Origin: Candidatus Uhrbacteria bacterium
GTDB taxonomy: Bacteria > Patescibacteriota > Patescibacteriia > UBA9934 > GWF2-40-263
Assembly: GCA_016206085.1 (NCBI GenBank)
Contig: JACQSF010000005.1
Coordinates: 1,337-65,336, forward strand
Length of the DNA: 64,000 bases
Direction of reading: 5' to 3'
The notes under the pieces were generated by a model. The model was not told the DNA's origin and ran no database searches. It saw only the letters and a program-made list of their open reading frames with translations. Below are positions 3,470 through 52,558 of this stretch, in pieces (positions within the stretch are counted from its first letter, which is position 1; each line of letters opens with the position of its first letter). The translations under genes and the position numbers were made by a program.

Positions 3470-4167
3470 AGATGATGTTTTTGCACAATCACATCATGGG
3501 CGGCTTTATGTTTTCGAATCGCTTGAGGCGACCAGCCAATGAGTTGCCAGGGTAATCGATACACGAACTTTGGCAACCAGCGCGAATACGATGGACGATC
3601 AGATTCAACCAGAACATGATACAACGCTTCGTCCACAAACACGCCGACCTTCCCCTGCTCACTCATGGTAAGCCAGAGATCCCAATCCTGGAAGCGTTTG
3701 AGTGATTCATCGAAACCTGGAAAATCATCACGACGAATAAGCGCGGTCGTGTGAATGTAGTTTTGCGAACGAAGCGCCTCGGCGCTGAAAGGTCGACCTT
3801 GGAAGAGTCGACGTCCCCACCAAAAACTTGAATAGGCCCAAGCGGCTTTGTGGTTCTCTTTTAAAGCGTCCTCGAGTCTCTTCAACATCATCGGTTTCGC
3901 AATCACGTCAGCATCCCAAAAAATGACGAGCTCACCGGAGGATTTTTCAAACCCGTGATTACGAGCAACAGGCGCCCCTTGATTTTTTTGAAAGAAATAG
4001 TCGATTCGATCACGGTACGGGGCGAGCACATCAACGGTTGTGTCTGTTGAACCGTCATCAACAACGATCACCTCGTTTGGCCGTCGCGTCTGAGCGAACA
4101 ACGAATCAAGCGCGCGTGGAAGCGTGGTGGCGTGTTGGTAGGTGGGGATGATCACCGAGATCTTCAT
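3466..4167 (-). CDS. glycosyltransferase family 2
   Basis: KISVIIPTYQHATTLPRALDSLFAQTRRPNEVIVVDDGSTDTT is the classic GT2 N-terminus. The start was set to the ATG forming an ATGA overlap with the GT4 stop; the track ORF starts at 4203. Confidence 0.8.
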   Translation of the reverse strand: MKISVIIPTYQHATTLPRALDSLFAQTRRPNEVIVVDDGSTDTTVDVLAPYRDRIDYFFQKNQGAPVARNHGFEKSSGELVIFWDADVIAKPMMLKRLEDALKENHKAAWAYSSFWWGRRLFQGRPFSAEALRSQNYIHTTALIRRDDFPGFDESLKRFQDWDLWLTMSEQGKVGVFVDEALYHVLVESDRPSYSRWLPKFVYRLPWQLIGWSPQAIRKHKAAHDVIVQKHHL

Positions 4168-5264
4168 AGATACGGATCCAGCTTGCTCATCTGATTCTGA
4201 CACGTAAACGTCTTGGCGTGCTCGCGTGCCTGTAGGGACATTGCTGAACGAAGCTCGATATTTTTTGCCAGTGTCATGATGGCACTGGCCAGCAAACGCT
4301 CGTCTTGCGACTCGAGCAATAAACCAGTCTGTTGATCGATCACCGCCTCGTCGACTCCCTCGACTCTCGTTGCGATCGATGGTAATCCGGCTGCGGCAGC
4401 TTCAATATACACAAGTCCAAACCCTTCCTTATCAACAGAATCCTGCGAAACAGGCATAACAAACAGGTCAGACCCTTGATATAAACGCTGACGCTCCTCG
4501 TCTGAAACCATGCCATGAAACACGACATGACTGTTGAGATCCAACGTATCGACCATCGACCGCAGGCTTGACTCCATTGGACCATCGCCGACAATGTGGT
4601 ATACGAACTCGCCGAGTTCACCAGTCCCTCGAAGATGCGCGAGCGCGTTGAGAACATGCGTGTGTCCTTTGCGTTCGACGAGTCGAGAGACGGTGAGGAG
4701 GGAGAAGGGGTGGAAAGGCGGGAAGGTGGGAAGGTGAAGAGGTGGCAAGGGTGGAGTAATGCAGGGGTACACGACGAGAACCTCGGCGATACCAAAGTCG
4801 CGGGCAAGCTCGCGGGCGAGGGCTTGAGAATTGGCGACGACGAGACGCGCCCCTTGTAAAACTTTCGTTGCGAGTCGACGCTTTCGACTTGAAGACGAAG
4901 CGAGACGAATATCCATGCCGTGCACAAAAACAATGTACGGCGTTCCAGTAACCTTTTTTGCAAGCAGAGCTGCTGAACCGATCGGAAGAACATGACTCGT
5001 CAGAATGAGGTCATATCGAGAACGGTATGACCAGAGATAACGGACAGTCTTCAGCCACCTCGGCCAAATAAGTCGGCTCAGCAATGGCGCACGATAGATC
5101 GGGTATCCGGCGCTTGAATCAAACGTACTCCACGCAGGATGCGGATCCGCAAGAACCTCGATTCGATCCTTCAGGTGCTCAGCAACGGCTTGAAGGTAAC
5201 GCGCAACGCCACCTTCATTTGGGGGAAAGTCTGGGGTGATGAGGAGGATCTTTTTCTCATTCAT
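4164..5264 (-). CDS. glycosyltransferase family 4 (GT-B, Glycos_transf_1 type)
   Basis: C-terminal EGFGLVYIEAAAAGLPSIATRVEGVDEAV motif and the GT-B two-domain length. The interdomain linker carries a Pro-rich repeat encoded by 4709-4734. Confidence 0.8.
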   Translation of the reverse strand: MNEKKILLITPDFPPNEGGVARYLQAVAEHLKDRIEVLADPHPAWSTFDSSAGYPIYRAPLLSRLIWPRWLKTVRYLWSYRSRYDLILTSHVLPIGSAALLAKKVTGTPYIVFVHGMDIRLASSSSRKRRLATKVLQGARLVVANSQALARELARDFGIAEVLVVYPCITPPLPPLHLPTFPPFHPFSLLTVSRLVERKGHTHVLNALAHLRGTGELGEFVYHIVGDGPMESSLRSMVDTLDLNSHVVFHGMVSDEERQRLYQGSDLFVMPVSQDSVDKEGFGLVYIEAAAAGLPSIATRVEGVDEAVIDQQTGLLLESQDERLLASAIMTLAKNIELRSAMSLQAREHAKTFTCQNQMSKLDPYL

Positions 5265-6706
5265 ACGCGCTTGAAATATCCTAGATCCGTGAGTTTAAAT
5301 GATCCGGTAACGAGAAGCCCTACAAGATAGACGCCCCCACCGATGAACACAACAGGAATCCATCCCATGAGAGGCTTAAGGACTATGACGACGATGAGCA
5401 TGATGACGCCAACAAGGTAGATTGGCAGAATCGTTCGTACAAGTTGACGAAAGGAGAATGAGGGAATCACGCTGGGGATGTAGAAAAGACCGGCGACAAA
5501 CATGAAGACAAAGCTTGCAAGCGCTGCGTAGGCCGCACCAAGTATCCCAACCTGCGGGATAAGAATGGCATTGAGAACAATATTGATAATCATCGTGACA
5601 CCCATGATGACAGTCTTCGTTGACTGTTTTCCACAGGCATTCAGAAGCGAACCGATTGGGAAGTCAAGAAAAATCGGAATAAGGACAAAGATGAGTGTCT
5701 GCAAAACAATCGTCGCTTGTGTGTACTCCTTTCCTGCTAACAAAATAGCTTCCGGTGCCACGGCATAGAGTCCAAAAACGATCGGAGAAGAAATGAGCGC
5801 CATGTACCACATGCTTCTGAGGAAAATTTGTTTGAGACTCGCAGGATCCTTCCCTGCCACGGCACTCATGCCTGGATACAGGGCGGCGATAAAAGCAAGC
5901 GGAAGAAACTGAAAGGCATAGGTAAATTTATAGGCGATCGCGTAGACTCCCACCGCCGTGGTGTCGAGAATTTTTGAGATAAAAATTGAGTCGACATAGG
6001 AATAAATCTTGACAAAGATAGCGGCCAACGCAAATGGAAAGGCCATCTTCAAAATGAGTCGCGCGTCCTGACTTGACCAATGCGGAATGAGCGTGGACCA
6101 ACCAAGTCGTCGTGCCACACAAAAGGAAGCCACGAGGAGATTGATGAAACTTCCCCCCATAAGAGCCACAACGAGAAGTGGAAGCGATGGAGCGAGCGCA
6201 AGCACAAGGCTTCCAACGAGAGCCGTTGTCAGCATGCCTGAAAAAATACCTGCTGCCTCAAATTGGAGCGCCTGGAAGCCACGAAGCACCCCATAAAAAA
6301 ATACCTGCAGAGCGTCAAGCACAAGCACGACACAAGACATGGCGATGAGAACCTGAACGCTGTGGTCATATCCAAGGAGCCATCCCGTTGCCACAGAGCC
6401 ACTGACCGCAAGTATTATGAGCGGGAGCTTGAGAGCGAGGGCATGGGAGATGAGTTGACGAGCTTGTGTGGGGTCTTTGGCAATCTCGCGAATGGTGACG
6501 GATGTGATCCCGAACTCGGCGACGACAGAATAGATCGTTGTAATCGAAAGTGCGAGGAAATACTGACCAGTCATGTCTGGCATCATCACCCTGGCGAGAA
6601 ACAAAAAGTAGACAAAAGCGATGATCTTCTGTCCAACCGAGGCGATGGTCAAATAGAGGGCGTTTCTTGCAACTCGTTGCGTCACACAATGTGTAGTGTA
6701 ACCCAA
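5261..6706 (-). CDS. polysaccharide/oligosaccharide flippase (Wzx-like, MOP superfamily)
   Basis: A 481-aa protein with about 12-14 TM segments. The N-terminus NALYLTIASVGQKIIAFVYFLFLARVM is typical of polysaccharide biosynthesis (Wzx) proteins. It is the first gene of the GT locus. Confidence 0.7.
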   Translation of the reverse strand: MGYTTHCVTQRVARNALYLTIASVGQKIIAFVYFLFLARVMMPDMTGQYFLALSITTIYSVVAEFGITSVTIREIAKDPTQARQLISHALALKLPLIILAVSGSVATGWLLGYDHSVQVLIAMSCVVLVLDALQVFFYGVLRGFQALQFEAAGIFSGMLTTALVGSLVLALAPSLPLLVVALMGGSFINLLVASFCVARRLGWSTLIPHWSSQDARLILKMAFPFALAAIFVKIYSYVDSIFISKILDTTAVGVYAIAYKFTYAFQFLPLAFIAALYPGMSAVAGKDPASLKQIFLRSMWYMALISSPIVFGLYAVAPEAILLAGKEYTQATIVLQTLIFVLIPIFLDFPIGSLLNACGKQSTKTVIMGVTMIINIVLNAILIPQVGILGAAYAALASFVFMFVAGLFYIPSVIPSFSFRQLVRTILPIYLVGVIMLIVVIVLKPLMGWIPVVFIGGGVYLVGLLVTGSFKLTDLGYFKRV

Positions 6707-46194: not shown

Positions 46195-47490
46195 TCAGTC
46201 GTCGTAGGATCCACCCGTTTCAAAGACGGCTCTGAAGTATCCGGGACGACGAAGGTCATCGTCTTGTTGGAGGGCTCGGATCAATCCCTCCAAGTGAATC
46301 CCCTCACGTTCCATTTGAGGATCCTCTGAACGCGCCATCAAGAGAACCTCCACTTTCAGCGCCCAGAGGTTTTCGTCCACTCCCGAACGCATGGATTCCA
46401 CCAGAGCAACGATCCGTGCCCGCATTCCCTGGTAGCGTGTCGAGCGAGTCACCGTCAGTCCCTGTGGAGGGACTACTCGAGCGGTCAAATCAGGACGAGC
46501 GATGAACCCCACGGAAGGCACTGCAGCCTGGGGCACCTCAGAGTCCTTGAGAGCAAGTCGTGCGGTTTCGTCGGCAAGGCGCTTGCGTTCGTCCGCTTCC
46601 TGTTTGCGCTTGAGCTTGCGTTCCTCTGCTTCTTCATCATGGCGACGTTGCTCATCCCCCAGTCGAAGATCAGCAAGACGCTTGCGTTCGTCCGCCTCAC
46701 CCTGGATGGCGAGGCGACGCTTGAACGCTTCCTCCTGCTGGATCTGACGTCGACCACACTCCGCTGCGTCTTGATCAAATCGACGTTGCCTTTCCTCGGC
46801 CTCGTCGGCCAGGCGCTTCTTGCGTTTGGCTGGTGTCTCCTTACCACGAACGGCTGCCTCCTCGCGGAGAATTTCAGCGGTAGCTCGAGTCGTGTCCTGG
46901 ATCTGTGCGAAACCATGGACAGATTGAGGTGGATCGACGACGGCCGGAGCAGAAGCTGCGTCAGGCGTCGACGGGGTCTCATCTCCAACACTAGCCTGAC
47001 CTGCCTCCTTGCGTGTCTTCTTGTTGTCGCGGCGGGGGCGATCATCGTCCGTCCTGGAGACGCTCAGGCTCACGAGTGTGGGAGTCGAAGCCTGAACTTT
47101 TGCACCGCGTAGGGCAGAGAGTTTGAGAGCCGATGTTGAGGCGGATGCCTGAGTCACAAGTGGCGATGGAGAGGACGAAGAAACTCCTGTTACACTCGAA
47201 GGTGACACAGCCACAGAACGAATCGGTGTCACAGTTGATGCTGCTGGGGATGCAGCTCCTGCAAGCTGTTGCCATTTCCCGACGCGGGAATCGCCTGCGT
47301 TCTGGGCGATGAAGGCCGTGGAATCGAGCAGAAACTCCTCTGCCCAATCAATAACATCCTTGGAAAGGCCAGCGGCGTCTGCGGGGTCGATCTGATCGAC
47401 CTCCTTGAGTGCCTGCACAGCCGCATCCAGATCCACTCCCTTTTGGATTACCTTAGAGAACAAAGCAATCCAGGCGGTTTTCTTTTCCAT
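46195..47490 (-). CDS. hypothetical protein (N-terminal domain, Ser/Ala/Pro/Thr-rich linker, highly charged Arg/Glu coiled-coil with internal repeat, C-terminal domain)
   Basis: GGAGGA lies 5 nt upstream of ATG 47490. EADERKRLAD occurs twice, encoded by a repeated 17-mer cgcttgcgttcgtccgc. GC is above the local background. No recognised domain. Confidence 0.5.
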   Translation of the reverse strand: MEKKTAWIALFSKVIQKGVDLDAAVQALKEVDQIDPADAAGLSKDVIDWAEEFLLDSTAFIAQNAGDSRVGKWQQLAGAASPAASTVTPIRSVAVSPSSVTGVSSSSPSPLVTQASASTSALKLSALRGAKVQASTPTLVSLSVSRTDDDRPRRDNKKTRKEAGQASVGDETPSTPDAASAPAVVDPPQSVHGFAQIQDTTRATAEILREEAAVRGKETPAKRKKRLADEAEERQRRFDQDAAECGRRQIQQEEAFKRRLAIQGEADERKRLADLRLGDEQRRHDEEAEERKLKRKQEADERKRLADETARLALKDSEVPQAAVPSVGFIARPDLTARVVPPQGLTVTRSTRYQGMRARIVALVESMRSGVDENLWALKVEVLLMARSEDPQMEREGIHLEGLIRALQQDDDLRRPGYFRAVFETGGSYDD

Positions 47491-47625
47491 GTGTCCTCCA
47501 TGAGTTGCTGTTATCAGACAACAGCCAAACCTATCAGTTTGAACCTGCCCTGTCAATCAAAATCGACATAATTTTGTTCAGTTTCTATAAAAAGTGTTAC
47601 TTATTATCAAATCGGCCAGGTTCCT

Positions 47626-47654
47626 TTGACATGAGCAGCACTTTCAGCTAATCT
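47626..47654 (+). promoter_or_regulatory. candidate sigma70-type promoter of the 47712 gene
   Basis: TTGACA (47626-47631), 17 nt, TAATCT (47649-47654), in an AT-rich divergent spacer. GGAG lies 8 nt before ATG 47712. Confidence 0.45.
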
Positions 47655-47711
47655 CATCCTCTGGCGTTTTGGTAGACGTCCAGTGTCCAGTCAACCCACG
47701 GAGATCGTGAC

Positions 47712-49283
47712 ATGAGCCTTCCCTCCGCTTCAACCGCCCTCGCCCTCCCGGAACGCGTCCCCGCGCTCCTGCGGATCTACAACGATCTGCTCGACCTGGC
47801 CGCGCGCGTGCTGCGCAACAGCCTCAAGCGCGGCCGCGGCAAGCCGCCCAGCCTGGGGCAGTGCCGCAAGATCATCGAAGAGCACGTCGTGTGGGATCCC
47901 AAGTCCCCCGGCGTTCCCTTCGTCGCCCACGCCCCCTTCGCCGTCAGCCGCGAGACCGTCGGCTGGACCATCCGGCAGAAGACGACGCGCGACGGTGTCC
48001 CGGTGTTCGAGGGCGACAAGCCCAAGACCATCCTCGCCGCCGTGAAGGACTTCGTAATCGCCTGTGAGGTCAACATGCCTTCGGGCAAGGGTGGCGCGCG
48101 CGAAGATCGGCAGGTCGTCCCGCTCATCACCTGCGACGGCCGCGGTGGGCTCATGCCCTACGTCACGATCGACGAGCAGGGCGAGATCCTGCCCGGCGCC
48201 CCGCTGCTGTCCATCTTCATCCGCGACTTCGACCCAAGGGATCCCAAGAAGTCCAAGGACCGCGTCCGCGCGATCCCGCTGGGGCTCGCGAGGATCGAGA
48301 ACATCGACCGCTGGAACACGGTGGTCGCGCGCATGGCGTCTCAGGGCGGCAGCTCCTGGCAGCACATCCAGGCCATCCCCAACAGCCTCCTGCGAACGGT
48401 CCAGTACCTGACGCTCCAGCCCGGAGGACTCACGGAAACCCAGGGCCAGATGGCCATGTGGAAGCGTTCCGAGGACTTCAACCCCGACAGGCCCGACTTC
48501 TGGATCGTGGAACGGCTGCTGGGCAAGGCGGCGACGCTGGACCCCAGGAGCCGCAGCATCATCATCCAGGGCGAGGGCCGCGAGGCCGACGTTCCGGAGC
48601 AGATCTTCCTCATCGAGGAGGGCTGGAACTCGGTCGTCCTGCGGGTCTGGGGTCTCCCCGGGCAGCTCGGCGAGATCAACCTGCGCGAACTCGACATCGA
48701 GGAGACGCGGCTGGACGTGCTGGCCCTCTTCCGGGTCAGCTACTACGAGGTCAACCCCCGCAGCGGGGTCGCCATCCTGCGCGCTGCAATGGGCAAACCG
48801 CCCATGGATCAGCTCGTCGCGTGGGGGCTCATCCCACCGGACAGCAGTGTCGATCTGGCGCGTTCGACCCTCAGGGGCATGTCCACCATGATTCGTCAGC
48901 GGGTGGAGGAACAGGTCACCACGGCCTACAACGACCTGGTGCGCCTGCTGGGACCCGGTGGGGCGCAGAACCACGGCCTGTCCCTCGCGGACGCGCTTGG
49001 CTCCACCAGGGAGCACCCCGTCGAGCCCACCCCGGAGCTGCTCCGGCAGGTGCACGACAGCATCGACGAGGATCTCCTCGCGGTAGCCATCGTCAGCAGT
49101 TCCGTAGCCAAGGAGCTCGGGCTGGAGGTCTGGGCCGGCGACTGCTGGGTTCTCGTCGAGACCCGCAAGACGCTCCTGCTCGCCCTGGCCGCCTCGGCCG
49201 GGATCGAGATGGCGCCCCCGCCCACGCCGCCCGAGGCTCCCGCGGCCGCCACCGGCGACCAGCCGCCCGCCACGACCCCCTGA
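47712..49283 (+). CDS. hypothetical protein, 523 aa, extremely GC-rich orphan
   Basis: Third codon positions are almost all G/C in this frame, and the amino-acid composition is balanced. The 519-aa antisense ORF is Arg/Gly/Pro-rich junk. No recognised catalytic or binding motif. Confidence 0.6.
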   Translation: MSLPSASTALALPERVPALLRIYNDLLDLAARVLRNSLKRGRGKPPSLGQCRKIIEEHVVWDPKSPGVPFVAHAPFAVSRETVGWTIRQKTTRDGVPVFEGDKPKTILAAVKDFVIACEVNMPSGKGGAREDRQVVPLITCDGRGGLMPYVTIDEQGEILPGAPLLSIFIRDFDPRDPKKSKDRVRAIPLGLARIENIDRWNTVVARMASQGGSSWQHIQAIPNSLLRTVQYLTLQPGGLTETQGQMAMWKRSEDFNPDRPDFWIVERLLGKAATLDPRSRSIIIQGEGREADVPEQIFLIEEGWNSVVLRVWGLPGQLGEINLRELDIEETRLDVLALFRVSYYEVNPRSGVAILRAAMGKPPMDQLVAWGLIPPDSSVDLARSTLRGMSTMIRQRVEEQVTTAYNDLVRLLGPGGAQNHGLSLADALGSTREHPVEPTPELLRQVHDSIDEDLLAVAIVSSSVAKELGLEVWAGDCWVLVETRKTLLLALAASAGIEMAPPPTPPEAPAAATGDQPPATTP

Positions 49284-49299
49284 GGCCACGCCTCAACGC

Positions 49300-49352
49300 C
49301 CGCTCGAAGCAGAACCACCTCGTGGTACCTACTCTCGAGCGGCTTTTCTTTT
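49300..49352 (+). terminator. candidate terminator after the 47712-49283 gene
   Basis: 8-bp stem ccgctcga / tcgagcgg (49300-49307 and 49335-49342) followed by cttttctttt. The loop is long (27 nt) and contains the small hairpin ccac-ctc-gtgg. Confidence 0.35.
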
Positions 49353-49358
49353 CCGACA

Positions 49359-49488
49359 GAGACCTCTGCAAAAGTCGCGATCTTGCGGCTTACGGGCGCC
49401 CGCCGACCCCACTCTCCCTATGTTGCATAGGGTTCGTGGGGCTCGGCAGCCCGTGCACCGCAATCTCATCGACTTTTGCAGAGGTCTC
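49359..49488. other. 130-nt GC-rich rod-like hairpin (unclassified structured element)
   Basis: A perfect 19-bp closing stem, gagacctctgcaaaagtcg / cgacttttgcagaggtctc. Further nested pairings are ttgcgg/ccgcaa, acgggc/gcccgt, ccgacccca/tggggctcgg and ccctatg/cataggg. Confidence 0.6.
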
Positions 49489-49546
49489 GACAAGATTAGA
49501 CCTGTTGCCAAATAATTTTATGCCTGTTGATTCACCTCTGAAACCA

Positions 49547-49582
49547 ACGATCAATTATGTCCGATCGGACATAATTGATCGT
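49547..49582. repeat. perfect 36-nt palindrome acgatcaattatgtccgatcggacataattgatcgt
   Basis: Read directly from the sequence. It contains three GATC sites. Confidence 0.75.
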
Positions 49583-49654
49583 GCCCACAAATTGGTTAGG
49601 CACAAAATGATAAATCTTTCCTACAAAAAATCGACCATCGCTGGTCGATTCCCT

Positions 49655-49688
49655 ACGATCAATTTTGTCCGGTCGGACAATTTAGATC
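49655..49688. repeat. degenerate second copy of the 36-nt palindrome, overlapping the tatD stop codon
   Basis: In acgatcaattttgtccggtcggacaatttagatc, the left half differs from copy 1 at one position and the right half has diverged. Centre-to-centre distance from copy 1 is about 108 bp. Confidence 0.55.
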
Positions 49689-50539
49689 ACAAGCTGAAAG
49701 ATCGTCTTTGTATTCTCATATGTATGGTTCGCGACCTGGTCGATCGTCACCCCTTTCAACTCTGCCAGCTTTTTGGCGACATACTCGACCCGCCAGGGTT
49801 CATTTCGTTTTCCGCGATCTGGTGCTGGCGTGAGATACGGGGAATCTGTTTCAACAAGCAATCGCTCCAGTGGCAGCGCCCTGGCAACTTCCTGCAAGTT
49901 TTTCGCAAACGTAAGGATGCCACTGAACGAGATGTAAAAACCCAAATCAACAAACGCCTGCGCCTCCTCCAGCGTCCCGGTAAAACAATGAATAACACCT
50001 CGTCGTGCCAGCTTCCCTGCCCCGATCGCCTCGCGGATCATGACCGCCTGCTGAGGATAGGCATCCCGGCAATGAATCACGATAGGCTTGCTGGTCTCTG
50101 TCGCGAGATCAAACTGCGCCCGCACGGTTTCTTCTTGTCGACGAATGACTTCTGCGCGATCAGCGCTCTCGGGGATTCGATAATAATCCAGTCCAAACTC
50201 CCCGATGCCGACACACTTCGGATGCTTTGCAAGTTCGCGGTAATAATCCATATCAAACTTCTCCGTGCGCGTTTTGATCTTTGGTGTTGCCTGCTCTTCT
50301 GGTGGAAGTTCATCGTTGTCCCAAAACTCCTGTTCGACGGTGTGGTTAGGATGAAGCCCCACCGTCGCCCACATCCCCTTGTAACGTTCGGCGACTTTCA
50401 GACCATGCGCAGACGTATCTTTTTGCGTTCCAACGGTAATCATAAAAACCCCATGATCCAGGGTTCTTTTGATCACGTCATCCATGTCCTCTCGGTACGC
50501 ATTAAAATGCACATGACAGTGTGAATCGATGAGGCGCAT
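49682..50539 (-). CDS. tatD: TatD-family metal-dependent hydrolase (DNase)
   Basis: MRLIDSHCHVHFNAY ... GEFGLDYY ... IHCRDA ... VIHCF ... ETDSPYLTP. Confidence 0.85.
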   Translation of the reverse strand: MRLIDSHCHVHFNAYREDMDDVIKRTLDHGVFMITVGTQKDTSAHGLKVAERYKGMWATVGLHPNHTVEQEFWDNDELPPEEQATPKIKTRTEKFDMDYYRELAKHPKCVGIGEFGLDYYRIPESADRAEVIRRQEETVRAQFDLATETSKPIVIHCRDAYPQQAVMIREAIGAGKLARRGVIHCFTGTLEEAQAFVDLGFYISFSGILTFAKNLQEVARALPLERLLVETDSPYLTPAPDRGKRNEPWRVEYVAKKLAELKGVTIDQVANHTYENTKTIFQLVI

Positions 50540-50540
50540 A

Positions 50541-51089
50541 TCACTGTACGGGTTCTGAAATGACTGTCACGGCCGAGTTCGTCGCTGATTCAACGGACTG
50601 ACGAGCTGCTTCAGGAAAAAAGACCTGCAGCACACTCATAATGGTCAACAGAAAATCTGCAACGACAGAAGTTTCCAACGTTGTACGCAGCGCATCATCA
50701 GGAAGAACTAACATCGCGTAAAACAAAACAACACCAACGACGATCACGCCTTCAACACATCCAAACAACCCGCCCAGAAATTTGTCCAAGGACCGCGCAA
50801 ATGGAATCCATGCGAGCACATTGAAAATTCTTCCAACGAACCAAAAAACAATACCTAGGAGTCGCGTGATAATAAAAAAGATCAAAATAAAAACAATAAT
50901 CCTCGAGATCGTTCCGCCGCCAAACAAAAACCCAAACGTCTCAAACGCCGGATCTACAAGTCGAGAAGCAAACAAGGTCCCAACGATCGTTCCCAGCAGC
51001 GAGCCCAGTGTATGAACAAGCCCGAAAAAAAAACCGAAAAAGACGAATGCGCCGACAATGACCATGAGAACGATGTCAATGAAGCCCAC
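50541..51089 (-). CDS. cvpA: CvpA-family membrane protein
   Basis: MGFIDIVLMVIVGAFVFFGFFFGLVHTLGSLLG, four TM helices, and a typical size. Confidence 0.65.
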   Translation of the reverse strand: MGFIDIVLMVIVGAFVFFGFFFGLVHTLGSLLGTIVGTLFASRLVDPAFETFGFLFGGGTISRIIVFILIFFIITRLLGIVFWFVGRIFNVLAWIPFARSLDKFLGGLFGCVEGVIVVGVVLFYAMLVLPDDALRTTLETSVVADFLLTIMSVLQVFFPEAARQSVESATNSAVTVISEPVQ

Positions 51090-51100
51090 AAAAAAAGGTG

Positions 51101-52558
51101 TTAGGTGGAAAGGGGGGAAGGTGGGAAGGAAGCAGTCAAATCGCGTCGAGGGAACAAGGACTCTCCAACGAGAATAACTTTATCATAGCGACGGAGGATT
51201 TCTGAACTTGTCTGTGGAAGAACCGGCGCGAGTGCACGACCAATCCAACGGATCTGCTGTGAGATCATCGACAATACCTGCTTGGCCGCTGCTTCGTCTT
51301 GTTTCACAAGTTTAAACGGTTCTTTTTTGTCGACTTCCTCGTTTGCCTCGTCCACTACAGCAAAAACTTCATCGAGGTAAACCTTGAAGTCGTACTGAGC
51401 AATAGCCTCGTCGAGCGTTTTTTGTCGACCCGACCAGTCAATGTCAACTTCATCGAGCTTCCCCTCAAAATACTTCACACTCATGGCCGCCACGCGACTC
51501 ACCAAATTCCCCAAACGGTTGGCAAGCTCGGCATAGCGTTCCTCCATCCGCTCACGCGAAAAATCGCCGTCGTCATGGGAGGGAATTTCTCGAAGGAGAT
51601 AATAACGCAGCGCGTCCGTCCCGTACTCTTTCACTTCGTCAAACGGATCCACCACGTTTCCAAGACTCTTGCTCATCTTCTGTCCGCCTGAGGTGATAAA
51701 GCCATGAATGAAAATCTGCTTGCTTGGCGCAACACCTGCAGACATCAACATCGCCTGCCACATCGCTGATTGTTGGCGCAGGTTATCTTTTCCCGCAACT
51801 TGCACACCTGGCCAGAACCTGAACGCACCACTCTCATCGGGCCAGCCCAGGGTTGAAATGTAGTTCACGAGCGCATCAAACCAAACATACATGACCTGCA
51901 TTTCATCGCCTGGTACCGGCACGCCCCAGGGCATCTTGGATGCGATGCGCGAGATACTAAAGTCTTTCAGCCCGCCCTCCACGAATGTCTTAATCTCACG
52001 CAGACGATTCTCTGGTACGACAAAGTCGGGATGCTTCTCGTAAAGGTCTAGCAGTGGCTGCTGGTAGTTTGAAAATTTGAAGAAGTAATTCTCTTCATCG
52101 ACGAGCTGAAGTTCGAGATTTGGATGCACAGGACATCGGTTATCGACGAGCTCGGAGTCGGTCTTCTCCAGCTCACAGCCCACGCAGTACTTCACTTGGT
52201 AACGCGCTTTGTAAATATCCCCTCGCGCCTCACAGCGTTTCCAAAATTCTTGCGCGGCCGCCTCATGCTTGGGATCACTCGTCTGAATGAAATTCGTGTA
52301 CGAAAGATTCAGCGTATCCTTGAGTGCATCAAACTTCGCCGCATATTCATCGACGTACGCCTTGGGCTCCTTCCCTTCCTCGAGTGCCTTCTCGTAAATT
52401 TTTTGCCCATGCTCATCTGTACCGGTATTGAAAATAACTTCCTCTCCGCGCAGCCGATGATATCGCGCCAATGCGTCGGCCTGCACAATCTCAAGCGCAA
52501 ACCCAATGTGGGGTTTCGCGTTTACGTACGGAAGGGTCGTGGTGATGTAATACTTCAT
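51101..52558 (-). CDS. metG: methionine--tRNA ligase (short form)
   Basis: YYITTTLPYVNAKPHIGFA (HIGH), zinc knuckle CVGCE...CPVH, and KMSKSLGN. The C-terminal 9 residues and the stop are encoded by the repeat at 51104-51129. Confidence 0.92.
   Translation of the reverse strand: MKYYITTTLPYVNAKPHIGFALEIVQADALARYHRLRGEEVIFNTGTDEHGQKIYEKALEEGKEPKAYVDEYAAKFDALKDTLNLSYTNFIQTSDPKHEAAAQEFWKRCEARGDIYKARYQVKYCVGCELEKTDSELVDNRCPVHPNLELQLVDEENYFFKFSNYQQPLLDLYEKHPDFVVPENRLREIKTFVEGGLKDFSISRIASKMPWGVPVPGDEMQVMYVWFDALVNYISTLGWPDESGAFRFWPGVQVAGKDNLRQQSAMWQAMLMSAGVAPSKQIFIHGFITSGGQKMSKSLGNVVDPFDEVKEYGTDALRYYLLREIPSHDDGDFSRERMEERYAELANRLGNLVSRVAAMSVKYFEGKLDEVDIDWSGRQKTLDEAIAQYDFKVYLDEVFAVVDEANEEVDKKEPFKLVKQDEAAAKQVLSMISQQIRWIGRALAPVLPQTSSEILRRYDKVILVGESLFPRRDLTASFPPSPLST

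What the first reader, a model, noticed from the sequence alone, without database searches (positions are those of the whole stretch)
49359..49488. 130-nt GC-rich rod-like hairpin immediately downstream of the GC-rich orphan gene
A perfect 19-bp closing stem, gagacctctgcaaaagtcg (49359-49377) / cgacttttgcagaggtctc (49470-49488), encloses four further nested helices. These are ttgcgg/ccgcaa, acgggc/gcccgt, ccgacccca/tggggctcgg (one bulge) and ccctatg/cataggg with a 3-nt tip. Roughly 47 of about 65 possible pairs are formed.

The element lies after the terminator-like hairpin of the 523-aa gene, so it is not simply that gene's terminator. It matches no RNA class I can recognise. It could be a stand-alone structured RNA, a single-strand origin or nick-site type hairpin of a mobile replicon, a recombination site, or a MITE-like palindromic insertion (gaca occurs on both sides of the stem).
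Basis: seen in the sequence. Interest (0 to 1): 0.6.

Follow-up and report, generated by a model that had tools for sequence, protein, structure and literature searches.

The report
Small hairpin-shaped jumping-gene remnant (MITE)
The 130-base hairpin is real, but it is a miniature non-coding transposable element (MITE) carrying the end-repeats of a widespread IS5-type insertion sequence, inserted between two genes of a Candidatus Uhrbacteria genome, so it is an ordinary kind of mobile DNA rather than a new RNA gene.

Summary
The hairpin at 49359-49488 exists as described: perfect 19-bp outer stem, 52 pairs, fold z about -11.6 on both strands, flanked by a GACA direct repeat. It is a MITE.

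The exact 19-mer arm occurs in well over 100 public loci from at least 7 phyla. After removing one false class, 77 non-redundant short elements (35-328 nt) remain. 53% of them have 4-6 bp flanking direct repeats, against about 2% by permutation.

The same termini bound 1.12-1.19 kb elements that encode IS5-family DDE transposases (NF033581, 250-270 bits). The arm differs by one base from the published TIR of ISNme1, the IS5-family element of Neisseria.

A relative MAG carries the same 130-nt subfamily between atpI and atpB as CATA-[element]-CATA, where the window and a third genome are empty. The window's own spacer is 398 nt against 56-67 nt, with no element, in two syntenic relatives.

There is no Rfam match. 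The neighbouring "GC-rich orphan" gene is conserved in synteny in Uhrbacteria and is not an island.

One mildly notable point: interiors are unrelated in sequence yet nearly always rod-like, with compensatory changes. No cognate transposase was seen in the window. Verdict: a new member of a known kind, of low to moderate interest.

The parts
49355..49358 (.). Left copy of the 4-bp target-site duplication (GACA)
   Evidence: Read directly. Across the family, 41 of 77 elements have direct repeats of at least 4 bp, against a permutation mean of 1.8. The same subfamily shows 4-bp duplications in L161 (CATA), L034 (CATA), L030 (AAGG) and L021 (TTAT).
49359..49377 (.). Left terminal inverted repeat (TIR), GAGACCTCTGCAAAAGTCG
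   Evidence: Perfect inverted repeat with 49470-49488. The identical sequence ends the full-length IS5-family elements L146, L118, L093, L138 and L074. It differs at one position from the ISNme1 TIR GAGACCTTTGCAAAA (PMC4596501 Table 2).
49378..49387 (.). Left sub-terminal block (CGATCTTGCG), conserved in the Uhrbacteria-type subfamily
   Evidence: Nearly invariant columns 20-29 of alignment A1.
49388..49459 (.). Variable rod-like interior (nested helices and a 3-nt tip); the sequence differs between copies but the pairing is kept
   Evidence: Folds. 8 pairs show changes on both sides and 95.4% of cells are paired, against 90.0% in shuffles and 35-46% in slid controls.
49460..49469 (.). Right sub-terminal block (CGCAATCTCAT region), conserved in the subfamily
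   Evidence: Invariant columns 101-112 of alignment A1.
49470..49488 (.). Right terminal inverted repeat, CGACTTTTGCAGAGGTCTC
49489..49492 (.). Right copy of the target-site duplication (GACA)
49298..49353 (+). Context only, not part of the element: terminator-like hairpin plus T-rich tail of the 523-aa gene. The element inserted just after it, in the spacer between the convergent 523-aa gene and tatD.
   Evidence: Fold. The orthologous spacers in L161 and L162 consist only of such a hairpin.

Best explanation

Mechanism (inferred from the family, not shown for this copy): an IS5-family DDE transposase made elsewhere binds the two 19-bp terminal inverted repeats and moves the element. It makes a staggered cut at the target, and repair of that cut leaves a 4-5 bp direct duplication, GACA here.

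The copy landed in the spacer between the convergently transcribed 523-aa gene and tatD of a Candidatus Uhrbacteria genome, a site where it disrupts nothing.

The rod-like fold has two sources. The outer stem is simply the two TIRs pairing. The inner helices reflect a family-wide tendency of these elements to keep a palindromic interior. Why that interior is maintained is not established; the options are a DNA cruciform or ssDNA form used in mobilisation, or a stable RNA stem-loop tolerated or used by the host.
For: 1. Copies. The exact 19-mer arm occurs in 37 genome loci from at least 7 phyla, where about 4 are expected by chance from database size (my estimate), and in at least 120 metagenome loci. 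Most are short elements with the arm at both ends in inverted orientation.
2. Flanking duplications. 41 of 77 non-redundant short elements have direct repeats of at least 4 bp (mode 5 bp). The permutation mean is 1.8 and the maximum 8.
3. Autonomous partners. 1118-1192 bp elements with the same termini and 5-bp duplications (L146 TGATA, L118 AACTC) each encode one protein of about 320 aa. These match NF033581 IS5-family transposase at 250-270 bits (cutoff 140) and Pfam DUF772 plus DDE_Tnp_1. In L133 a MITE and a full-length element sit in successive copies of the same target repeat with TTCA-type duplications.
4. Known lineage. ISNme1 has the TIR GAGACCTTTGCAAAA, ISPg1 has GAGACCATTGCA, and the BrickBuilt MITE has GAGACCTTTGCA (PMC4596501). 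An annotated IS5 element on a Solidesulfovibrio plasmid has GAGACCAATGCACAG ends and an ATATC duplication.
5. Filled versus empty sites. In the relative MAG JACRJW01 the same 130-nt subfamily sits as ggtCATA-[element]-CATAggtta between atpB and atpI. The window (cat ACG tta) and L162 (cat AC tta) are empty there. Conversely, the window's 523-aa/tatD spacer is 398 nt, but 56 and 67 nt without any element in syntenic L161 and L162.
6. Multi-copy in relatives. There are at least 3 copies in JACRJW01 and at least 6 in JAGVQB01, both syntenic with the window at 65-73% nucleotide identity.
7. No Rfam family matches the hairpin.
Against: - No IS5-family transposase gene is present in the 64-kb window or in the fetched loci of the Uhrbacteria relatives. 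Whether this copy can still move in its host is unknown.
- The window holds a single copy.
- The exact ancestral empty site for this particular copy cannot be aligned, because the relatives' spacers are too diverged. A 4-bp flanking repeat taken alone has a 1/256 chance probability.
- The MITE interior shares nothing with the sampled full-length elements beyond the TIR, so direct descent from a particular IS is not shown. It is a 'type II' MITE.
- Compensatory changes in the interior show that something beyond TIR recognition constrains the sequence.
Confidence: 0.9

Rival explanations
1. The element is primarily a functional RNA structure. It would be either a stand-alone small RNA or a 3'-UTR stem-loop that protects or terminates the transcripts of the convergent 523-aa gene and tatD. 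Its MITE features would be only its evolutionary origin.
For: - The fold is very stable on both strands.
- Interior helices are kept through changes on both sides in 8 pairs.
- 24 of 30 unrelated interior clusters fold far better than shuffles once the arms are removed (with the 374-nt class excluded).
- Copies lie in intergenic spacers, often within a few bases of gene ends.
- Other bacterial MITEs are known to form RNA stem-loops (general knowledge, not tested here).
Against: - No Rfam match even at E<=1.
- No T-run follows the stem on either strand, and the scan finds no terminator at the element.
- The 523-aa gene already has its own terminator-like hairpin upstream of the element.
- The syntenic relatives manage without it.
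- Orientation relative to neighbouring genes shows no consistent pattern in 11 copies.
- The most conserved part is the transposase-recognition termini, not the loops.
- No expression data are available.
Confidence: 0.06
2. It is a REPIN-like element, a doublet of REP sequences moved as single-stranded DNA by a RAYT (IS200/IS605-type Y1) transposase. That would explain why a hairpin is conserved.
For: The size and rod-like hairpin shape resemble REPINs. Compensatory changes preserve the hairpin.
Against: - Elements are flanked by 4-6 bp target-site duplications. Y1-transposase elements do not generate these (established knowledge).
- The termini match those of elements encoding DDE IS5-family transposases.
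- The same arm occurs across at least 7 phyla, unlike species-specific REPs.
- No RAYT was seen next to any copy. I did not scan for Y1 transposases specifically.
Confidence: 0.02
3. It is a replication or recombination site belonging to a mobile GC-rich island: a single-strand origin, a nick site or an attC-like site.
For: It sits exactly where GC content drops from about 0.69 to about 0.40-0.50. It follows a gene with no Pfam domain.
Against: - The two Pfam-less genes and their neighbours (the atp operon on one side, tatD-cvpA-metG on the other) keep the same order in two other Uhrbacteria genomes. Their homologs are also GC-elevated there, and no hairpin is present.
- No second arm bounds the stretch.
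- The ends are GAGACC/GGTCTC, not the attC core sites GTTRRRY.
- No integrase or Rep gene is adjacent.
Confidence: 0.01

Closest known systems
ISNme1 (IS5 family, Neisseria meningitidis) and its proposed type II MITE 'ATR'
   Same: The TIR GAGACCTTTGCAAAA / TTTTGCAAAGGTCTC differs from the window's arm at one position, and that very variant occurs in some copies (L003, L025). This is a short non-coding element sharing only the TIRs with an IS5-family parent (PMC4596501).
   Different: The host phylum differs (Patescibacteria versus Proteobacteria). The interior sequence is unrelated and GC-rich rather than AT-rich. I could not compare transposase sequences with ISNme1 directly. The sampled partner transposases are at most 40% identical to annotated plasmid IS5 transposases.
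Porphyromonas gingivalis IS5-family elements ISPg1/ISPg4/ISPg9 and their MITEs (BrickBuilt, MITEPgRS/MITE464)
   Same: The termini are GAGACC(A/T)TTGCA. The MITEs share the TIRs with the IS but not the interior. Flanking duplications are short and variable, including a 4-bp GAAA with a filled/empty comparison between strains.
   Different: BrickBuilt is larger, contains a minisatellite, and has distinct leader and tail segments. The element here is a compact, almost fully self-complementary rod.
Other bacterial hairpin-forming MITEs (Correia/CREE, ERIC/IRU, RUP, Nezha)
   Same: They are 100-170 bp, have terminal inverted repeats, are intergenic, and the whole length can fold into a long stem-loop (my general knowledge; not tested here).
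   Different: They have different terminal sequences, different presumed transposases, and characteristic duplications (for example TA for Correia). Each is restricted to a narrow host range, whereas this arm is found in at least 7 phyla.
REPINs (REP doublets mobilised by RAYT)
   Same: A hairpin about 100 nt long kept by compensatory change, intergenic and multi-copy.
   Different: REPINs have no target-site duplication and use a Y1 transposase. Here duplications are frequent and the partners are DDE IS5 transposases.

Membership tests
Bacterial MITE (non-autonomous DDE-transposon derivative) | Short (about 50-500 bp) and without coding capacity | tested here: met
   130 bp. The only ORF listed across it is the implausible 688-aa GTG ORF 48458-50524, which overlaps the 523-aa gene out of frame and runs antisense to tatD.
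Bacterial MITE (non-autonomous DDE-transposon derivative) | Terminal inverted repeats | tested here: met
   19/19 bp perfect TIRs.
Bacterial MITE (non-autonomous DDE-transposon derivative) | Target-site duplication flanking the element | tested here: met
   GACA on both sides. Across the family, 41 of 77 elements have at least 4 bp, against a permutation mean of 1.8.
Bacterial MITE (non-autonomous DDE-transposon derivative) | TIRs shared with an autonomous element that encodes a transposase | tested here: met
   L146, L118, L093, L138, L074 and L133 are 1.12-1.19 kb, have the same termini, and encode an IS5-family transposase.
Bacterial MITE (non-autonomous DDE-transposon derivative) | Multiple dispersed copies in a genome or lineage | tested here: met
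   At least 3 copies in MAG JACRJW01 (L003, L021, L161) and at least 6 in JAGVQB01 (L012, L025, L028 x2, L030, L034), both relatives of the window organism. Only 1 copy is visible in the 64-kb window.
Bacterial MITE (non-autonomous DDE-transposon derivative) | Presence/absence (filled versus empty) at orthologous sites | tested here: met
   At the atpI-atpB junction, L161 is filled with a CATA duplication while the window and L162 are empty. The window's own spacer is filled while L161 and L162 have 56-67 nt without an element, although that pair is not alignable at base resolution.
Bacterial MITE (non-autonomous DDE-transposon derivative) | Cognate transposase present in the same genome (needed for current mobility) | not testable with these tools
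   None in the window or in the relatives' fetched loci.
IS5 family (IS5 group, ISNme1/ISPg1-like termini) | Terminal motif GAGACC..TGCA(AAA) | tested here: met
   The window arm is GAGACCTCTGCAAAAG. ISNme1 has GAGACCTTTGCAAAA and ISPg1 has GAGACCATTGCA. The Solidesulfovibrio IS5 has GAGACCAATGCACAG.
IS5 family (IS5 group, ISNme1/ISPg1-like termini) | DDE transposase of the IS5 type in the autonomous members | tested here: met
   NF033581 at 250-270 bits against a cutoff of 140, plus PF05598 and PF01609.
IS5 family (IS5 group, ISNme1/ISPg1-like termini) | Short target duplication (4 bp is typical of the IS5 group, from my own knowledge) | tested here: met
   4 bp in the window subfamily (GACA, CATA, AAGG, TTAT). 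The mode is 5 bp across all subfamilies and in the full-length elements.
Known RNA families (Rfam 15) | Covariance-model match at or near the gathering score | tested here: not met
   No hit in the window at gathering thresholds. No hit overlapping 49359-49488 at E<=1.
Intrinsic terminator | GC-rich stem followed directly by a T/U run | tested here: not met
   The stem is followed by GACAAGATTAG (+) and TGTCGGAAAAG (-). The scan reports no terminator at the element.
REPIN / RAYT system | No target-site duplication; associated Y1 (RAYT) transposase | tested here: not met
   Duplications are frequent, and the partner proteins are DDE IS5 transposases. A specific Y1 scan was not done.
Integron attC site | R''/R' core sites (RYYYAAC ... 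GTTRRRY) downstream of a cassette in an array with an integrase | tested here: not met
   The ends are GAGACC / GGTCTC. The neighbouring genes are conserved chromosomal synteny.

The most novel reading that the evidence does not exclude
The rod-like interior may itself be under selection across a pan-phylum superfamily of 'hairpin MITEs' that share the ISNme1-type IS5 terminal repeat. One possibility is that short elements are mobilised or maintained through a folded form, such as a cruciform, single-stranded DNA or RNA. Another is that the stem-loop is repeatedly co-opted by hosts.

A further twist: streamlined CPR bacteria (Uhrbacteria) carry many copies without an obvious cognate transposase. 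That would imply mobilisation in trans by a divergent enzyme, or import from partner organisms.
Probability: 0.15. Interest if true: 0.5.

Novelty: new member of a known kind. Interest (0 to 1): 0.25.

Why it matters
The finding removes a candidate "novel structured RNA" from the list and gives it a concrete identity. That is useful for annotating CPR/Patescibacteria MAGs, where such 130-nt palindromes break assemblies and can be mistaken for RNA genes or island boundaries.

It also documents two things:
- One IS5-type terminal repeat (GAGACCTCTGCAAAAGTCG) marks non-autonomous elements in at least seven phyla. These include small-genome Uhrbacteria, where one copy even sits inside the ATP synthase operon, one base from the atpB start codon.
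- The interiors of these elements stay hairpin-shaped although their sequences are unrelated. This is a tractable question about what constrains MITE structure.

None of this changes current understanding of transposons.

Tried and rejected
- Rfam at gathering thresholds over the whole window, and at E<=1 around the hairpin, found nothing on the element.
- A viral-contig scan with the arm gave 0 hits.
- blastn of the 130-mer against plasmids gave only chance-level 25-31 nt hits.
- A full-text search for the arm sequence gave only unrelated primer-like matches.
- Candidate long elements were rejected:
  - L013 2463 or 3599 to 6562: the second arm is a chance match with 2-4 mismatches, and the interior holds ordinary housekeeping genes.
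  - L018 and L078, 1759 bp: two partial arms around an aminotransferase gene, not an IS.
- The 374-nt "family" (18 non-redundant copies, largely from human-gut metagenomes) is not an element. It is an open reading frame of a penicillin-binding-protein-like gene that happens to contain the 19-mer. I removed it from all statistics.
- The GC-rich stretch as a composite transposon or island bounded by the hairpin is rejected. There is no second arm, and the synteny is conserved.
- Looking next to single-arm copies found no transposase. These are short elements whose second arm has degenerated.
- Clean empty sites at L021 and L028 versus the window were not obtained, because those relatives also carry an extra gene there.
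- The look-up of encoding contigs for the window's tatD returned only a 2.5-kb contig that stops 66 nt short of the hairpin. The 523-aa protein was not on record there.

Full report
**Observation.**
- It has a perfect 19-bp outer stem, GAGACCTCTGCAAAAGTCG / CGACTTTTGCAGAGGTCTC. This encloses four nested helices and a 3-nt tip, 52 pairs in all.
- It folds far better than shuffles on both strands as RNA (z = -11.6) and as DNA (z = -11.8).
- GACA flanks it on both sides.
- It lies 75 nt after the stop codon of the 523-aa gene, beyond that gene's own terminator-like hairpin, and 193 nt from the stop of the convergent tatD gene.
- No Rfam family matches it at gathering thresholds or at E<=1.
- The window holds only this one copy.

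**Copies elsewhere.**
- An exact-match scan for the 19-mer arm found 37 loci in one-genome-per-species bacterial genomes. The hosts are Patescibacteria, Verrucomicrobiota, Planctomycetota, Acidobacteriota, Desulfobacterota, Alpha- and Gammaproteobacteria. I expect about 4 chance hits from database size (my estimate).
Viral contigs gave none.
- In most loci the arm recurs in inverted orientation 35-330 nt away, with 0-4 mismatches.
- One apparent 374-nt class, largely from human-gut metagenomes, is a false positive. It is an open reading frame of a penicillin-binding-protein-like gene that happens to contain the 19-mer. I removed it.
- 77 non-redundant short elements remain.

**Transposon signatures.**
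- 41 of the 77 elements (53%) are flanked by direct repeats of 4 bp (12 elements), 5 bp (25) or 6 bp (4). Permuting the flanks gives a mean of 1.8 and never more than 8. The genome-only subset gave 11 of 26 against 0.8.
- Six loci contain 1.12-1.19 kb elements bounded by the same termini. For example, L146 at 602-1719 has both arms exact and a TGATA duplication, and L118 at 1260-2416 has an AACTC duplication.
- Each encodes a single protein of about 320 aa. The three scanned against NCBIfam match NF033581 (IS5-family transposase) at 250-270 bits against a cutoff of 140, and the four scanned against Pfam match DUF772 plus DDE_Tnp_1.
- These transposases are only 31-45% identical to one another apart from two closer pairs. 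The terminal repeat therefore characterises a whole clade.
- In L133 a 118-nt short element and a full-length element sit in successive copies of the same host repeat, with TTCA-type duplications. That fits one enzyme acting on both.

**Link to described elements.**
- Table 2 of PMC4596501 lists the IS5-family element ISNme1 of Neisseria with TIRs GAGACCTTTGCAAAA / TTTTGCAAAGGTCTC. This is one base different from the window's arm, and identical to the variant seen in copies L003 and L025.
- The same table gives GAGACCATTGCA for ISPg1 and GAGACCTTTGCA for the BrickBuilt MITE. The paper cites ATR as a type II MITE proposed to derive from ISNme1.
- An annotated IS5-family element on a Solidesulfovibrio plasmid has a transposase about 36% identical. 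Its ends are GAGACCAATGCACAG / GAGACCACTGCACAA and it has an ATATC duplication.

**The host and the neighbourhood.**
- The 523-aa protein is identical to an NCBI entry from a Candidatus Uhrbacteria MAG. It has homologs at 33-65% identity in other Uhrbacteria.
- Two relatives, L161 (contig JACRJW010000064) and L162 (CAYHSS010000004), have the same gene order as the window: atpE-atpB-atpI, a hypothetical gene, the 523-aa homolog, then tatD-cvpA-metG.
- The homologs are also GC-elevated there, at 0.62-0.63 against 0.55-0.56 for the locus.
- The "GC-rich orphan island" is therefore a conserved lineage-specific gene pair, not recently acquired DNA. The hairpin is not its boundary signal, and no second arm exists anywhere in it.

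**Filled versus empty sites.**
- In L161 and L162 the spacer between the 523-aa homolog and tatD is 56 and 67 nt and consists only of a terminator-type hairpin. In the window it is 398 nt and contains that hairpin, the element with its GACA duplication, and a further pair of palindromes.
- The spacers are too diverged to align base by base. A base-resolution case exists for the same subfamily.
- L161 carries a 130-nt copy between atpB and atpI as ggtCATA-[element]-CATAggtta. The window reads cat-ACG-tta and L162 reads cat-AC-tta at the orthologous junction.
- This shows insertion with a 4-bp duplication in a close relative: the synteny blocks are 65-73% identical at the nucleotide level.
- The relatives carry at least 3 copies (JACRJW01) and at least 6 copies (JAGVQB01).

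**Structure beyond the terminal repeats.**
- Outer-stem pairing is an automatic consequence of the TIRs. The interiors, however, are also structured.
- With the 19-nt arms removed, 24 of 30 unrelated interior sequence clusters fold with z < -3. The median over the 31 clusters as computed, before the false class was dropped, was -6.2.
- In the window's subfamily (alignment A1, 10 copies from at least 5 genomes or contigs) the termini and sub-termini are nearly invariant. The apex differs in sequence but remains a hairpin.
- 8 pairs change on both sides, and 95.4% of cells are paired. Column shuffles give 90.0% (0 of 500 reach the observed value), and slid registers give 35-46%.
- Variants range from a 35-nt minimal form (L032), through an 83-nt near-perfect palindrome (L008), to 176-nt forms with an extra apical module (L102).
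- The interiors share nothing with the sampled full-length elements beyond the TIR. In the terminology of PMC4596501 these are type II MITEs.
- The tools here cannot decide whether the hairpin is kept by selection, at the DNA or RNA level, or is regenerated by the way such palindromes arise.

**What is shown and what is inferred.**
- Shown:
  - the hairpin itself
  - its membership of a large multi-phylum family with shared termini
  - strong enrichment of flanking duplications
  - autonomous IS5-family elements with the same termini
  - presence/absence at orthologous sites in relatives
  - conserved synteny of the neighbourhood
- Inferred:
  - this particular copy arrived by transposase-mediated insertion that created GACA
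  - an IS5-family enzyme did it
- Unknown:
  - whether a cognate transposase exists in this genome; none is in the window or the relatives' fetched loci
  - whether the element is transcribed or has any effect on the 523-aa gene or tatD

**Verdict.** This is a MITE of the IS5 family (ISNme1/ISPg1-type termini), a new member of a known kind. The options of an RNA gene, a replication origin or a recombination site are not supported. Interest is low to moderate. The points worth keeping are the breadth of the family, its abundance in small-genome Uhrbacteria, and the unexplained maintenance of a rod-like interior.

Noticed in passing
window 49547-49688: A second palindromic feature lies in the same expanded spacer. 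It consists of a perfect 36-bp palindrome (ACGATCAATTATGTCCGA/TCGGACATAATTGATCGT, 49547-49582) and a diverged second copy at 49652-49688, which overlaps the tatD stop codon. Together they fold with z = -7.8. It is absent from the 56-67 nt spacers of the relatives and has no other copy in the window or in the fetched loci, apart from L038, which is the same sequence. The only Rfam hit is sub-threshold (frnS, 30 bits against a gathering score of 60). It could be an operator pair or another small insertion; this is unexplained.
   Followed up: partly
window 46195-49283: The 'GC-rich orphan' pair is the 453-aa gene on the - strand (GC 0.57) and the 523-aa gene on the + strand (GC 0.69). Both lack Pfam domains, but they are conserved in position between atpI and tatD in two other Uhrbacteria genomes. 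The 523-aa protein has 8 homologs at 33-65% identity, and its homologs are also GC-elevated relative to their genomes. Why a conserved lineage-specific gene keeps a GC content 10-19 points above its genome is unexplained.
   Followed up: partly
L161 1189-1318 (contig JACRJW010000064.1): A 130-nt copy of the same subfamily is inserted inside the ATP synthase operon of a relative, between the atpI stop and the atpB start. The duplicated CATA contains the complement of the atpB start codon, so a strong stem-loop ends one base before the ATG. The left flank CATA next to the start codon of a minus-strand gene also occurs at copies L034 and L028, which hints at a target preference.
   Followed up: partly
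L142 313-1733: An IS110-family transposase gene (Pfam DEDD_Tnp_IS110 plus Transposase_20) lies between two arms of the element, 1421 bp apart. It looks like an IS110-type insertion nested in a hairpin element.
   Followed up: no
L133 1-1560: A short element and a full-length IS5-type element are each inserted in successive copies of another host repeat (...gttgtaatggtttgatattcaaccccttcag...). CTTCA, TTTCA and TGAAG recur among the flanking duplications of the whole family. This suggests preferential insertion into another repeated sequence, whose nature is unknown.
   Followed up: no
L041, L045-L047, L052 and other loci (374-nt spacing class): About 18 non-redundant metagenome hits to the 19-mer, largely from human-gut samples, are not mobile elements. 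They are a conserved coding sequence (ETSAKVAEMMRRVVNEGTAKNG..., penicillin-binding-protein-like) that contains the arm by chance. Anyone counting copies by the 19-mer alone should beware of this class.
   Followed up: yes
L028 2409-2411 and L012 6585-6587: In two relatives' copies the ORF of the adjacent minus-strand gene ends in a stop codon that spans the element boundary, with gaps of -1 and -2 nt. The insertion may therefore have reset the C-terminus of the neighbouring gene. This rests on mechanical ORF calls only.
   Followed up: no
window 49487-49516 (+): A promoter-like consensus match has a -35 hexamer, TCGACA, formed by the last two bases of the element plus the GACA duplication, then 18 nt, then AATAAT (10 of 12 matches). 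It points antisense into tatD. This is a consensus match only.
   Followed up: no
L038 (Logan contig SRR12113385_2721477) against window 49554-52028: An independent assembly of the same sequence, 100% identical, ends at window position 49554. That is inside the 36-bp palindrome and 66 nt from the hairpin. It fits these repeats breaking short-read assemblies.
   Followed up: no
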